A stretch of DNA of 64,000 nt, taken from NCBI RefSeq assembly GCF_030013205.1, contig NZ_CP122648.1. One strand, written 5' to 3'. How positions within the stretch are numbered: the stretch's first letter is position 1; each line of letters opens with the position of its first letter. Source of the stretch: Escherichia coli (GTDB lineage: Bacteria > Pseudomonadota > Gammaproteobacteria > Enterobacterales > Enterobacteriaceae). Below, piece after piece: positions 18,167-21,100 of this stretch. A program made the position numbers.

Positions 18167-21100
18167 TAAGTTTGCAAAGTGATAACTGCCGTGTGTTCCC
18201 TCAAAGCTATCGTTAATGGGCACACGGCATTTTTATATCAGATAAACGATATGTCATGACAATTTACAGACAGTATCGATATATAATTCATATTTATTAA
18301 TTTTTAATAATGATTCTCATCTGAGTATGTATCATACAATAAGCATTATAAATAACTAATAAATTATTTATTATATTTATATATTGCCCCACTCTTCAGT
18401 TATCCTGTCTAAAATAAATCTCTTTGTTTTCAAATGACTGTATTTTTATATAAAGTCAATCATTGCGAGCATGGATTCTTTTAGTTATATTACCAAGCAG
18501 CTCATATAATATTTTCAAGCCATTCTATCTCTTATTTTTTCTGTGGTTAACTACACCAGCTTTATTCATTTAAATAATTTGACTTATTAAAGCTGAATGT
18601 AAAAATAATCGCCAATATTGCTTGGATTTTTTAACAAAAGGAAAGGTATAAATGAAATTCAATCTATCTAATTTATCCGCAGTTTTACTCGCATCAGGTA
18701 TGCTGATGTCAACTGTAGTAACCGCTGCGCCAGGCGATGCATCACAATTTGGTGGTGCGGATACAGACTGGAGCACCGTTGATTATCCAAAACTCACCGA
18801 TATGGATAACAACACCGATGCGATGGGCGGAAACATCCGCTTTACTGGTCGTGTGGTTAAAGCGACGTGTAAGGTTGCTACAGAATCGAAACAGATTGAA
18901 GTGGTACTGCCAGTCGTACCTTCTAACGCTTTCACGGGCATTGATACCGAAGCAACGGGTGCCAGTAACCAGACTGACTTCAACATTAAACTGACTGATT
19001 GTAGCAATACGGACAGTCAAAATATTGAATTTCGTTTTACTGGCGTAGCAGACGGTGCCAACCAGACGCTTGCCAATGAAGTGGAAGGAGCTGCTGATGC
19101 TGATGGTACTGGCGAAGCGGGAGCTACGGGTGTAGGGATTCGTATTTATTCTAAAAACACGACAACTGATGGCCTGATTAAGCTGAACACACAAACTCCC
19201 CAGGGGGCCAGGCAAAAGGGAACGATGCAATAAACCTGGAAGATTAAAACGTTAAAGCAACTCAGGTCAGGGATATGAACCTAAAGCTCAGAAAACTCGA
19301 ACACAGGATGGCAAGGCAGAAGCAGATGAGGTGGTGTATGCTGCTTCTACTGACACTTTTGCCTGCGTGTTCAGTGGCGGGTATGCGCTTTAACCCTGCA
19401 TTCCTGTCGGGTGATACAGAAGCTGTTGCTGATTTATCTCGTTTTGAGAAAGGGATGACATATCTACCTGGTAGTTATGAGGTTGAAATATGGGTCAATG
19501 ATTCGCCTTTGACATCACGTAAGGTTACTTTCAAAGCTGATGAGCAGAATCAGTTGATCCCCTGTTTTTCGCTCGATGAGTTAGTTACTTTAGGAATTAA
19601 CAAAAGTGCATTGCCGGAACAGGCGCAAGCAGAGGGAAATAATTGTCTCGATTTACGTATATGGTTCGCAGAAGTTCAATACACTCCTGAACTGGATGCG
19701 CAACGACTCAAACTGACCTTTCCGCAGGCAATATTAAAGCATGAAGCCCGTGGTTATATTCCACCTGAGGAATGGGATAATGGTATCCCGGCCATTCTTA
19801 TTAATTATGATTTTTCTGGCAACAGTGATCGTGGAGACTATGCGTCTGATAGTTATTATTTAAATCTCCGTTCAGGTTTAAATTTAGGGGCGTGGCGTTT
19901 TCGTGATTATTCTACATGGAGTCGTTCAGGTAATTCACCGGGTAAAATTGCACATGTGAGTAGTACGTTACAACGAGTAATTATTCCTTTTAAAAGTGAA
20001 TTAACACTAGGTGATACCTGGTCTTCATCGGATGTTTTCGACAGTGTGAGTATTCGTGGTGCTAAACTTGAATCCGATGAAAACATGCTACCCGATAGCC
20101 AAAGTGGTTTTGCCCCCACTGTGCGCGGTATTGCTAAAAGCAATGCTCAGGTAACGATCAAACAAAATGGCTATGTTATTTATCAGACATATACTCCACC
20201 GGGACCCTTTGAAATCAACGATCTGAACCCTACGTCTTCCGCTGGGGATTTGGAAGTTACGATCAAAGAGTCTGATAATTCCGAAACTATCTATACTATT
20301 CCTTACGCCGCTGTTCCCATTCTTCAACGCGAAGGGCATATTAAATATTCGGCAACTGCCGGTAAATATCGTAGCAATAGCTATAATCAAAACAGTCCGA
20401 ATGTCTTTCAAGGAGATTTGATTTGGGGGTTACCCTGGGATATTACCACCTACGGAGGGATGCAATACTCAAATAATTATCGGGCAATAGCACTCGGGCT
20501 TGGGTTCAACCTTGGTATGTTTGGTGCGACGTCATTTGATTTAACGCAAGCCAATAGCACGCTTGCCGATGGCAGTAAACATCAAGGGCAATCGTACCGT
20601 TTCCTATATTCAAAATCGTTAGTGCAGACAGGTACGGCTTTTCAGATTATTGGTTATCGCTATTCGACGGAGGGATTTTATTCGTTGAGTGATACCACAT
20701 ACAAACAAATGTCGGGTACGGTTATCGATCCAGATACCCTTAATGAAAAAGACTATGTTTATAACTGGAATGATTTTTATAATTTACGTTATAACAAAAG
20801 AGGAAAGTTTCAGGCAAATATATCGCAACCATTGGGCGAATATGGCTCTATGTATTTGGCGGCAAGTCAACAAACTTACTGGAATACGAATAATAAAGAT
20901 ACCTTGTATCAGGTCGGCTATAATACGAGTGTACATGGGATTTATTTAAATATTGCTTATAATTATAGTAAGTCACCAGGTTCAGATGCGGACAGAATCT
21001 TATCCGTAAATGTCTCATTGCCGATCAGCAATTGGTTATCACCAGCTGTCGATGGGCGTACTGCGACAAATTCTATGACAGCAACTTATGGTTATAGTCA

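What the first reader, a model, noticed from the sequence alone, without database searches (positions are those of the whole stretch)
18238..18651. About 410 bp extremely AT-rich leader upstream of the first pilin gene, with no GATC sites and no adjacent regulator
The region upstream of the operon is long, very AT-rich and contains many A/T tracts, typical of xenogeneic promoters silenced by H-NS. I saw no GATC motifs (which argues against Pap-type Dam/Lrp phase variation) and no flanking inverted repeats of a fim-type invertible switch, and the island has no regulator gene. Expression control is therefore probably by global nucleoid proteins or a regulator encoded elsewhere.
Basis: inference. 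Interest (0 to 1): 0.4.

Follow-up and report, generated by a model that had tools for sequence, protein, structure and literature searches.

The report
AT-rich promoter of decayed auf operon

Summary
Window 18238-18651 (414 bp) is 24.9% G+C, the most AT-rich stretch of that length in the 64 kb. It has no GATC, no significant inverted repeat and no nearby regulator gene. Zero GATC is what this base composition predicts (about 1 expected, P(0)=0.36).

The locus is the known auf chaperone-usher fimbrial operon (aufABCDEFG of CFT073, c4207-c4214), inserted between glgP and glpD. A published CFT073 knockout primer matches 18620-18654 exactly. The window carries a second allele, found in 228 of 5,426 complete E. 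coli genomes. It is only 67-77% identical to the CFT073 allele in the genes.

The leader has two parts. A distal stretch of about 200 bp (16-20% G+C) cannot be aligned between alleles. A proximal part holds two conserved blocks, including the best candidate promoter (TTGCGA-17-TATATT, 18463-18491).

Published CFT073 data list all auf genes as H-NS- and StpA-bound, and show induction by TosR, a regulator encoded elsewhere.

It is shared only with 17 pig-derived genomes. Low interest; already known.

The parts
15722..18169 (+). glgP (glycogen phosphorylase), the core gene upstream
   Evidence: 815-aa ORF. Annotated glgP in the identical K_EC180 locus.
18174..25195 (+). Variable auf island, about 7.0 kb at 40.4% G+C, replacing the K-12 yzgL region between glgP and glpD
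   Evidence: Similarity to K-12 ends about 5 nt after the glgP stop and resumes at a shared REP-like element near 25195. G+C values. Island-less genomes match only as far as 18172-18178.
18187..18238 (+). Island-borne intrinsic terminator for glgP: stem GCCGUGUG..CCC / GGG.CACACGGC followed by AUUUUUAU
   Evidence: RNA fold of 18170-18245 gives -21.8 kcal/mol, z = -3.24 against shuffles. The arms were found as I11. The stem arms CCGTGTGTTCC / CACGG are retained in the CFT073-type allele while the loop differs. K-12 uses a different terminator.
18238..18651 (+). The reported AT-rich leader: the auf promoter region and 5' UTR
   Evidence: 24.9% G+C, lowest in the window. No annotated feature in any RefSeq genome listed. 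No Rfam match.
18238..18442 (+). Distal hyper-AT part (16-20% G+C in 50-bp windows), hypervariable; inferred H-NS nucleation and spreading platform
   Evidence: About 52% identity to the CFT073-type allele, so effectively unalignable, yet both alleles are about 25% G+C. Within-allele SNPs cluster here.
18263..18291 (+). Position homologous to the in-silico TosR motif of CFT073 (TTAATATATACCATTAATATATATTAAAT); diverged here
   Evidence: Motif taken from PMC5956150 Table S2. It is present in all 4 CFT073-type loci and absent from the loci with the window's allele. 18 of 29 positions are identical at the aligned site.
18276..18285 (+). TCGATATATA, a 9/10 match to the H-NS high-affinity 10-mer TCGATATATT (motif recalled from memory)
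   Evidence: Not significant across the window: 8 matches against 3.9 expected, and 8 of 100 shuffles do as well.
18443..18513 (+). Conserved block 1, holding the best candidate core promoter: -35 TTGCGA 18463-18468, 17-bp spacer, -10 TATATT 18486-18491. It overlaps an invariant TATAAT at 18505-18510.
   Evidence: 70-78% identity between alleles, against 52% for the distal leader. Alignment A4. Consensus scan. With local-background scoring it is the top-ranked candidate, at the homologous position, in both alleles. The transcription start site is not mapped.
18535..18540 (+). T6 tract, length-polymorphic between strains (mostly T7, a few longer)
   Evidence: It lies outside the spacer of either promoter candidate.
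18557..18595 (+). Imperfect 19-nt palindrome CAGCTTTATTCATTTAAAT / ATTTGACTTATTAAAGCTG, specific to this allele
   Evidence: Repeat I4, 79% complementary. Not palindromic in the CFT073-type allele.
18580..18651 (+). Conserved block 2: a window-specific second promoter-like site (TTGACT 18579-18584, TG 18598-18599, AAAAAT 18601-18606) and the Shine-Dalgarno region AAAGGAAAGG. The last ~40 bp are identical between alleles.
   Evidence: The -35 is TTGACT only in the window; it is GTGACT in the other two genomes with this allele and ATAACT in the CFT073-type allele. The CFT073 knockout primer matches 18620-18654 exactly.
18652..19233 (+). aufA', the truncated major pilin pseudogene. The last 49 residues, including the C-terminal strand ...ASFVVLYE, are replaced by 9 out-of-frame residues.
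   Evidence: Protein alignment A3. Annotated 'incomplete; missing C-terminus' in K_EC180.
19205..19206 (+). Junction of a 996-bp deletion (aufA 3' end, the aufA-aufB spacer and nearly all of the aufB chaperone gene), with 1-2 bp of G microhomology
   Evidence: Global alignment to the intact copy of this allele in strain M00057: locus L003 positions 9108-10103 are missing. The junction is shared by exactly 17 complete genomes, all from pigs.
19275..21866 (+). aufC usher, intact
   Evidence: NCBIfam usher model, 1078 bits, above its cutoff. Gapless against M00057.
21896..22429 (+). aufD minor pilin
22437..22961 (+). aufE minor pilin
22927..23706 (+). aufF chaperone, intact here but frameshifted in K_EC180
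23720..24850 (+). aufG tip adhesin-like subunit
   Evidence: Weak FimH/LpfD-type matches. Coordinates from M00057.

Best explanation
The interval is the cis-regulatory region of the auf chaperone-usher fimbrial operon, carried on a 7-kb low-G+C island between glgP and glpD.

Order of elements after the island's own glgP terminator:
- about 200 bp of 16-20% G+C DNA that varies freely in sequence but keeps its composition;
- a conserved core-promoter block, with the best candidate at -35 TTGCGA 18463-18468 and -10 TATATT 18486-18491;
- an AT-rich 5' UTR of about 150 nt, ending in a strong Shine-Dalgarno sequence.

Proposed mechanism:
- H-NS, together with StpA, nucleates on the hyper-AT DNA.
- It spreads over the promoter and the operon and keeps transcription very low.
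- Expression requires counter-silencing by conditions such as 37 C, or by factors encoded elsewhere, such as PapB-family proteins like TosR in strains that have them.
- There is no local switch: no Dam/Lrp methylation pattern, no invertible element, no island-encoded regulator.

What is shown and what is inferred:
- Shown here: composition, anatomy, conservation pattern, absence of switch features, and operon identity.
- Taken from published work on the CFT073 allele: H-NS/StpA occupancy, TosR induction, low expression and thermoregulation.
- Inferred: that this allele's leader binds H-NS, and where transcription starts.

In this particular strain the region drives a decayed operon (aufA truncated, aufB deleted), so it cannot yield a normal Auf fibre.
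For: Composition:
- The leader is 24.9% G+C, the minimum of the 64 kb. The island is 40.4% and the flanks are 52-55%.
- TpA steps make up 13.8% of dinucleotides, against 4.7% in the window.

Identity as auf:
- Same glgP/glpD position and gene order as the CFT073-type loci.
- Exact 35-nt match to the CFT073 delta-auf primer.

Conservation:
- The distal leader is unalignable between alleles but about 25% G+C in both.
- The two proximal blocks are 70-100% identical, while the auf genes are 67-77%.
- The top-scoring promoter candidate sits at the homologous position in both alleles.

Published data on the CFT073 allele:
- c4204-c4214 are listed as H-NS-bound and StpA-bound genes (PMC9765446 Data Set S1 sheet 1E).
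- TosR overexpression raises aufA-G by log2 2.6-6.6, and aufA by 5.2 in qPCR (PMC5956150).
- auf is higher at 37 C than at 23 C but at very low RPKM, and is undetected in the proteome (PMC12890032).
- Many cryptic chaperone-usher operons are H-NS-repressed (PMC3559732, PMC13245861).

No regulator in the island. Nothing recognisable in the extra CFT073-type genes either.
Against: - There is no direct H-NS or expression data for this allele or strain.
- The ChIP table is per gene, so the leader itself is not scored. aufA has the lowest occupancy of the operon (0.24, against 0.46-0.69).
- The specific H-NS 10-mer occurs once at 9/10, which is no more than chance.
- Promoter-like sites are not enriched over shuffles (5 found, 3.7 +/- 1.7 expected), and the start site is unmapped.
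- The proposed TosR motif of CFT073 is not conserved here (18/29). TosR's effect may be indirect.
- Whether this strain carries tosR or another PapB-family gene was not tested.
- A delta-tosR mutant showed no change in aufA.
Confidence: 0.7

Rival explanations
1. The leader is a functionless relic. Because the operon is pseudogenised in this lineage, the region is neutral AT-rich spacer DNA, and any H-NS binding is incidental to composition rather than a regulatory device.
For: - aufA is truncated and aufB is deleted.
- The closest relative, K_EC180, has additionally frameshifted aufF.
- The distal half is under no detectable sequence constraint.
Against: - The leader is 99-100% identical to that of strains with an intact operon, so the decay is recent and the promoter is unchanged.
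- The proximal blocks are more conserved between alleles than the coding genes.
- Five downstream genes remain intact.
- This reading concerns present usefulness. It does not contradict the H-NS mechanism.
Confidence: 0.15
2. A dedicated sequence-specific regulator encoded elsewhere, binding the conserved block 18443-18513, the last 40 invariant base pairs or the 18557-18595 palindrome, is the main control. H-NS would play only a minor part.
For: - Two blocks are conserved well above the surrounding leader and above the coding regions.
- TosR overexpression induces auf strongly in CFT073.
- There is a 19-nt imperfect palindrome next to the proximal -35-like hexamer.
Against: - The palindrome is not conserved in the CFT073-type allele.
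- IHF, CRP, Lrp, Fur and TosR-motif scans are at composition expectation.
- A delta-tosR mutant has no auf phenotype.
- The conserved blocks are equally explained by a core promoter, a ribosome-binding site and the signal-peptide codons, or by a recombination patch.
Confidence: 0.12
3. A phase-variable switch: Pap-type Dam/Lrp methylation, a fim-type invertible element, or slipped-strand change of the T tract.
For: - Many fimbrial operons are phase variable.
- The T tract at 18535-18540 differs in length between strains.
- There is a perfect 10-nt inverted repeat with arms 200 bp apart.
Against: - Neither allele has a GATC in the leader.
- There is no papI/papB or recombinase gene.
- The inverted repeat is at chance level (39% of shuffles), and the fimS repeat is absent.
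- 227 of 228 genomes are collinear.
- The T tract is only 6-9 nt, lies outside either candidate spacer, and its length is mostly fixed at T7 across genomes.
Confidence: 0.02
4. A cis-acting RNA element in the 5' UTR, such as a riboswitch, thermometer or small RNA, controls expression after transcription starts.
For: - The last ~40 bp before the ATG are identical between alleles that differ by 23-33% elsewhere.
- auf is higher at 37 C.
Against: - No Rfam match at E <= 1.
- The predicted 5' UTR fold is no better than shuffles (z = -0.14).
- Invariant sequence allows no covariation test.
Confidence: 0.03

Closest known systems
auf operon (aufABCDEFG, c4207-c4214) of uropathogenic E. coli CFT073 and its upstream region
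   Same: - Same chromosomal site (glgP/glpD).
- Same gene order in intact copies of this allele.
- A leader of about 490 bp at about 25% G+C with no GATC.
- Two conserved proximal blocks, and an identical ribosome-binding region that includes the published primer sequence.
   Different: - The allele is divergent: genes are 67-77% identical, and the distal leader cannot be aligned.
- The putative TosR motif is not conserved.
- It lacks the three extra hypothetical genes c4204-c4206.
- The window copy also has the 996-bp aufA-aufB deletion.
H-NS-silenced cryptic chaperone-usher operons of E. coli (yad, ycb/elf and others)
   Same: - An AT-rich promoter region with no dedicated adjacent regulator.
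- Very low laboratory expression.
- H-NS occupancy in ChIP-seq (for the CFT073 auf allele), with relief by host cues or temperature.
   Different: - There is no sequence homology between the leaders. The elfA upstream region does not align, and AufA and ElfA are 31% identical.
- Derepression in an hns mutant has been shown for yad. I found no such demonstration for auf.
pap regulatory region (Dam/Lrp/PapI/PapB phase switch)
   Same: A long AT-rich fimbrial upstream region. A PapB-family protein (TosR) influences expression of the CFT073 allele.
   Different: There are no GATC sites and no papI/papB genes adjacent. The defining features of the pap switch are taken from established knowledge.
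fimS invertible promoter element
   Same: A promoter-bearing segment upstream of the first pilin gene.
   Different: - No 9-bp fimS repeats and no significant inverted repeats.
- No recombinase gene.
- Only a single orientation in 227/228 genomes.

Membership tests
auf fimbrial operon (Auf, E. coli) | Chromosomal position between glgP and glpD | tested here: met
   glgP ends at 18169 and glpD is at 25357-26877 on the minus strand. The CFT073-type loci occupy the same site.
auf fimbrial operon (Auf, E. coli) | Gene order: pilin, chaperone, usher, two minor pilins, second chaperone, adhesin | tested here: inconclusive
   Intact copies of the same allele (M00057) have all seven genes. The window copy lacks aufB and the aufA 3' end because of a 996-bp deletion, so it is a degraded member.
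auf fimbrial operon (Auf, E. coli) | Sequence identity to the published CFT073 auf | tested here: met
   The 35-nt delta-aufKO_f homology arm matches 18620-18654 exactly. AufA is 84% identical at the protein level to the CFT073-type AufA. The genes are 67-77% identical at the DNA level.
H-NS-silenced xenogeneic promoter | AT content well above the genome average over hundreds of base pairs | tested here: met
   Leader 75% A+T and island 60% A+T, against 49% for the window.
H-NS-silenced xenogeneic promoter | Physical H-NS occupancy | not testable with these tools
   Published ChIP-seq lists c4204-c4214 of CFT073 as H-NS- and StpA-bound. There are no data for this allele or for the intergenic region itself.
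H-NS-silenced xenogeneic promoter | Derepression in an hns (or hns stpA) mutant | not testable with these tools
   I found no published auf measurement in the papers searched.
Pap-type Dam/Lrp phase switch | Two GATC sites within Lrp binding sites upstream of the pilin gene | tested here: not met
   No GATC in 18156-19555, and none in the CFT073-type leader.
Pap-type Dam/Lrp phase switch | Adjacent papI/papB-type regulator genes | tested here: not met
   All island ORFs are structural. The ORFs within the leader are at most 36 aa and lie in sequence that is not conserved between alleles.
fim-type invertible switch | Inverted repeats flanking a promoter segment of about 300 bp | tested here: not met
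   The longest inverted repeat is 10 nt, and 39% of shuffles match or exceed it. TTGGGGCCA is absent.
fim-type invertible switch | Site-specific recombinase gene nearby, and both orientations seen in populations | tested here: not met
   No recombinase among the island ORFs. 227/228 genomes are collinear over at least 80% of the leader.
Slipped-strand promoter switch | A long homopolymer or repeat in the promoter spacer or coding start | tested here: not met
   The T tract is 6 nt here and 7-9 nt in other strains. It lies outside both candidate spacers. No tandem-repeat search was run.

The most novel reading that the evidence does not exclude
The leader is bipartite in an unusual way. The distal half keeps only its composition, while the last ~40 bp and the first ~100 bp of aufA are 90-100% identical between alleles whose genes differ by 23-33%. 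This patch might be an undescribed conserved cis element: an operator for an unknown trans-acting regulator, or a translational control element. The alternative is that it is simply a ribosome-binding site and signal-peptide codons, or a recombination patch.
Probability: 0.1. Interest if true: 0.35.

Novelty: already known. Interest (0 to 1): 0.15.

Why it matters
It matters little beyond annotation. The result identifies the island as the known Auf fimbrial operon, in an allele distinct from the CFT073-type allele studied in CFT073, UTI89 and Nissle. It shows that its control region fits the common pattern of H-NS-silenced, regulator-less chaperone-usher operons.

Two points have some practical use. 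First, the candidate core promoter and the bipartite leader give a concrete design for reporter and footprinting experiments on an operon whose regulation is barely studied. Second, the 996-bp aufA-aufB deletion marks a porcine ETEC/O139:H1 lineage in which Auf is being lost.

Tried and rejected
- **Relatives outside E. coli.** Both scans of one genome per species found nothing: the peptide scan with the AufA alignment and the 31-nt exact pattern from the conserved ribosome-binding region. No cross-species footprint was possible.
- **Rfam.** A scan at E <= 1 over 17900-19400 gave no match.
- **5' UTR structure.** The fold of the putative 5' UTR is not better than shuffles (z = -0.14).
- **H-NS 10-mer motifs.** There is one 9/10 match in the leader, no more than chance.
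- **Transcription-factor patterns.** IHF, CRP, Lrp, Fur, PapB-repeat and TosR-MEME consensus scans were all at composition-matched expectation.
- **Homology to elfA.** The upstream region of elfA/ycbQ, from the operon Wurpel et al. call closest to auf, does not align.
- **Regulators among the CFT073-type extra genes.** The c4205/c4206 homologues gave no significant Pfam or NCBIfam family.
- **Original auf paper.** Buckles et al. 2004 (PMC427398) is not held in the library, so any promoter data in it could not be consulted.
- **Small ORFs in the leader.** They are at most 36 aa, with TTG or GTG starts, and lie in sequence that is not conserved between alleles. I rejected them as genes.
- **Not attempted.** I did not check whether this lineage carries tosR or another PapB-family gene. 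The tools cannot query one named genome for a gene whose sequence I did not hold.
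Full report
**1. Observation**

The glgP ORF ends at 18169 and the first fimbrial ORF starts at 18652, so the intergenic region is 482 bp. The reported stretch 18238-18651 is 414 bp at 24.9% G+C. It is the lowest-G+C stretch of that length in the 64-kb window, which averages 51.0%. 50-bp sub-windows reach 16-20% G+C.

No GATC occurs between 18155 and 19556. This is the longest GATC-free gap in the window. For the leader itself, only about 0.9-1.0 GATC is expected from composition, and 36% of composition-matched simulations have none. 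The absence is therefore real but statistically empty.

Inverted repeats are no better than chance. The longest perfect pair with arms 30-450 bp apart is 10 nt, and 39% of dinucleotide shuffles equal or exceed it. The fimS repeat TTGGGGCCA (recalled from established knowledge of fimS) is absent from the window.

**2. What the locus is**

The window is E. coli chromosome, with glgBXCAP upstream and glpD downstream. Compared with K-12, a variable segment of about 7.0 kb (about 18174 to 25195, 40.4% G+C) replaces the yzgL region. It encodes only structural chaperone-usher proteins.

This is the auf operon of uropathogenic E. coli (aufABCDEFG, c4207-c4214 in CFT073; PMC5956150). The published homology arm of the CFT073 delta-auf primer, GCTTGGATTTTTTAACAAAAGGAAAGGTATAAATG, matches 18620-18654 exactly.

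Among 5,426 complete E. coli genomes, 786 carry a homologous leader, in two allele classes:
- The window's class is in 228 genomes at 95% identity or more.
- The CFT073/UTI89/Nissle class is in 558 genomes. Only the proximal ~200 bp aligns with the window, at about 74-79%.

Between the classes, glgP is 98.5% identical and the auf genes are only 67-77% identical. No copy was found in the one-genome-per-species collection.

**3. State of the operon in this window**

An intact copy of the same allele (strain M00057, locus L003) has pilin (234 aa), chaperone, usher, two minor pilins, a second chaperone and an adhesin. The window differs from it by a clean 996-bp deletion (L003 9108-10103; junction at window 19205/19206, with 1-2 bp of G microhomology).

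- The deletion removes the last 49 residues of AufA, including the C-terminal strand ...ASFVVLYE. These are replaced by nine out-of-frame residues.
- It also removes the aufA-aufB spacer and nearly all of aufB.
- RefSeq annotates the same ORF as an incomplete pseudogene in K_EC180.
- The remaining genes align without gaps to M00057.

The deletion junction occurs in exactly 17 complete genomes. All are from pigs: a swine ETEC series, O139:H1 strains and K_EC180. K_EC180 is identical to the window for 13 kb but has an extra 1-bp frameshift in aufF. So the 'first pilin gene' of the finding is a pseudogene, and the operon is decaying in this lineage.

**4. Anatomy of the leader**

- *Terminator.* Immediately after glgP the island supplies its own terminator hairpin, about 18187-18232 followed by AUUUUUAU (-21.8 kcal/mol, z = -3.2). 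K-12 has a different terminator.
- *Distal part (18238 to about 18442).* This is the most AT-rich part. It is about 52% identical between allele classes, which is effectively unalignable, yet both leaders are about 25% G+C. Within the window's class, SNPs between M00057 and EcPF15 cluster from the glgP 3' end to about 18485 and almost vanish downstream through aufA and aufB. This points to a recombination breakpoint or relaxed constraint inside the leader.
- *Conserved block 1 (18443-18513, 70-78% identity).* It contains TTGCGA-17-TATATT (18463-18491), found by the consensus scan. In a simple weight-matrix scan with local background, it ranks first at the homologous position in both allele classes (the hexamer frequencies are approximations from memory). 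An invariant TATAAT (18505-18510) overlaps it.
- *Conserved block 2 (18580-18651).* The last ~40 bp are identical between alleles. It holds the Shine-Dalgarno region.
- *Second promoter-like site.* This site is window-specific (TTGACT-16-AAAAAT with an upstream TG). Its -35 is GTGACT in the other two genomes of this class and ATAACT in the CFT073 class.
- *Enrichment and start site.* Promoter-like sites as a whole are not enriched over shuffles, and no start site has been mapped.
- *T tract.* The T6 tract at 18535-18540 is mostly T7 elsewhere, rarely longer. It lies outside both candidate spacers.
- *Negative results.* No ORF in the leader is credible. There is no Rfam family. The putative 5' UTR has no unusual fold.

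**5. Switch mechanisms tested**

- *Pap-type.* It requires GATC pairs in Lrp sites plus papI/papB (established knowledge). Both alleles have none of these.
- *fim-type.* There are no significant inverted repeats and no recombinase gene. 227 of 228 genomes of this class have the leader collinear over at least 80% of its length.
- *Slipped-strand.* The only polymorphic tract is short and badly placed.
- *Binding-site consensus scans.* IHF, CRP, Lrp, Fur and the published TosR MEME motif are all at composition expectation.

**6. Evidence for H-NS and trans-acting regulators**

This evidence is published and concerns the CFT073 allele.
- In the CFT073 ChIP-seq of Hustmyer et al. 2022, every gene from c4204 to c4214 appears in the table of H-NS-bound genes, and is also StpA-bound in wild type (PMC9765446 Data Set S1 sheet 1E).
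- Overexpressed TosR raises aufA-G by log2 2.6-6.6, and aufA by 5.2 in qPCR. TosR is a PapB-family protein encoded in the tos operon on another island. The authors call it the first known auf regulator and leave open whether it acts directly. A delta-tosR mutant shows no change (PMC5956150).
- Their in-silico TosR motif, 360 bp upstream of aufA, is present in all four CFT073-class loci I fetched. It is absent from the window's class, where the aligned site (18263-18291) matches at 18 of 29 positions.
- auf is higher at 37 C than at 23 C, but at very low read counts and undetected in the proteome (PMC12890032). It is the only fimbrial system that falls in serum (PMC13245861).
- Silencing of cryptic chaperone-usher operons by H-NS is a general pattern (PMC3559732, PMC13245861).
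- The one near-match to the H-NS high-affinity 10-mer (TCGATATATA, 18276-18285; motif recalled from memory) is not more than chance.

**7. Mechanism and rivals**

The best-supported reading (confidence 0.7) is an H-NS/StpA-silenced sigma-70 promoter region.
- The distal hyper-AT half serves as the nucleation and spreading platform.
- The conserved proximal half carries the core promoter and the ribosome-binding region.
- Counter-silencing comes from temperature or from factors encoded elsewhere.
- There is no local switch.
- Shown here: the anatomy, the composition and the exclusion of switch mechanisms.
- Imported from CFT073: the H-NS binding and the TosR effect.
- Inferred: the transfer of these results to this allele, and the start site.

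Rivals and their confidences:
- A functionless relic in this decayed operon (0.15). This is compatible with the main mechanism.
- Control mainly by a sequence-specific regulator acting on the conserved blocks (0.12).
- Phase variation (0.02).
- A cis-acting RNA element (0.03).

**8. Comparison with known systems, and novelty**

The locus is a degraded member of the auf operon family, in an allele other than the one studied in CFT073, UTI89 and Nissle. Its control region works like the promoters of other H-NS-silenced cryptic chaperone-usher operons (yad, ycb/elf), with which it shares no sequence homology. It fails every defining test for pap-type and fim-type switches.

Nothing here departs from known biology, so I rate it 'already known', with interest 0.15.

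The most novel reading not excluded concerns the patch that is 90-100% identical between otherwise 23-33% divergent alleles. This patch covers the last ~40 bp of the leader and the start of aufA. It might be an undescribed cis element rather than a ribosome-binding site plus signal-peptide codons, or a recombination patch (probability about 0.1).

Noticed in passing
window 19205/19206 (deletion junction); aufA' 18652-19233: A 996-bp deletion removes the aufA 3' end and aufB. It is shared by exactly 17 complete genomes, all from pigs (a swine ETEC series, O139:H1 strains, K_EC180). It looks like a clonal marker of a porcine pathogenic lineage that is losing Auf.
   Followed up: yes
window ~23253 (aufF); locus L001 position 13154: K_EC180 is identical to the window for 13,153 nt, then has a 1-bp indel that frameshifts aufF. 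The window's aufF is intact. The same lineage therefore shows further stepwise decay.
   Followed up: partly
window 18130-18485, compared with L003 and L006: About 20 SNPs between two strains with the window's allele (M00057 and EcPF15) cluster from the glgP 3' end to about 18485. Only 4 differences follow in the next 1.6 kb. This suggests a recombination breakpoint inside the leader, or strongly relaxed constraint on its distal half.
   Followed up: partly
window 18600-18760: The last ~40 bp of the leader are 100% identical, and the first ~100 bp of aufA are about 90-95% identical, between the two auf alleles. The rest of aufA is about 70-80% identical. The cause is unresolved: functional constraint or a gene-conversion patch.
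   Followed up: partly
window 18579: The window has T where the other genomes with this allele have G. This turns GTGACT into a consensus-like -35 (TTGACT), 16 bp upstream of a TG-extended AAAAAT. It may be a lineage-specific promoter-up change.
   Followed up: no
L004 16406-18115 (CFT073 c4204-c4206 homologues): The CFT073-type auf island carries three extra hypothetical genes between aufG and glpD that are absent from the window's allele. The two I could test have no significant Pfam or NCBIfam match. All three are H-NS- and StpA-bound in the CFT073 ChIP-seq.
   Followed up: partly
window 18174-18238 compared with K-12 (L009): The island replaces the K-12 glgP terminator with a different hairpin terminator. 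So the island boundary lies only about 5 nt after the glgP stop codon.
   Followed up: yes
window ~25195-25330: A REP/BIME-like palindromic element (GCCGGATGCG...CTTATC.GGCCTACA, GCCTGATAAGCGTAGCGCATCAGGC), shared with K-12, marks the right boundary of the island. The 92-aa ORF at 25051-25329 overlapping it has no family match and is probably not a gene.
   Followed up: partly
window 1-650: This is a second strongly AT-rich stretch (27-31% G+C in 200-bp windows) at the very start of the window. I did not examine it.
   Followed up: no
whole window: GATC is over-represented overall: 292 sites against 242 +/- 14 in dinucleotide shuffles, with no shuffle reaching 292.
   Followed up: no
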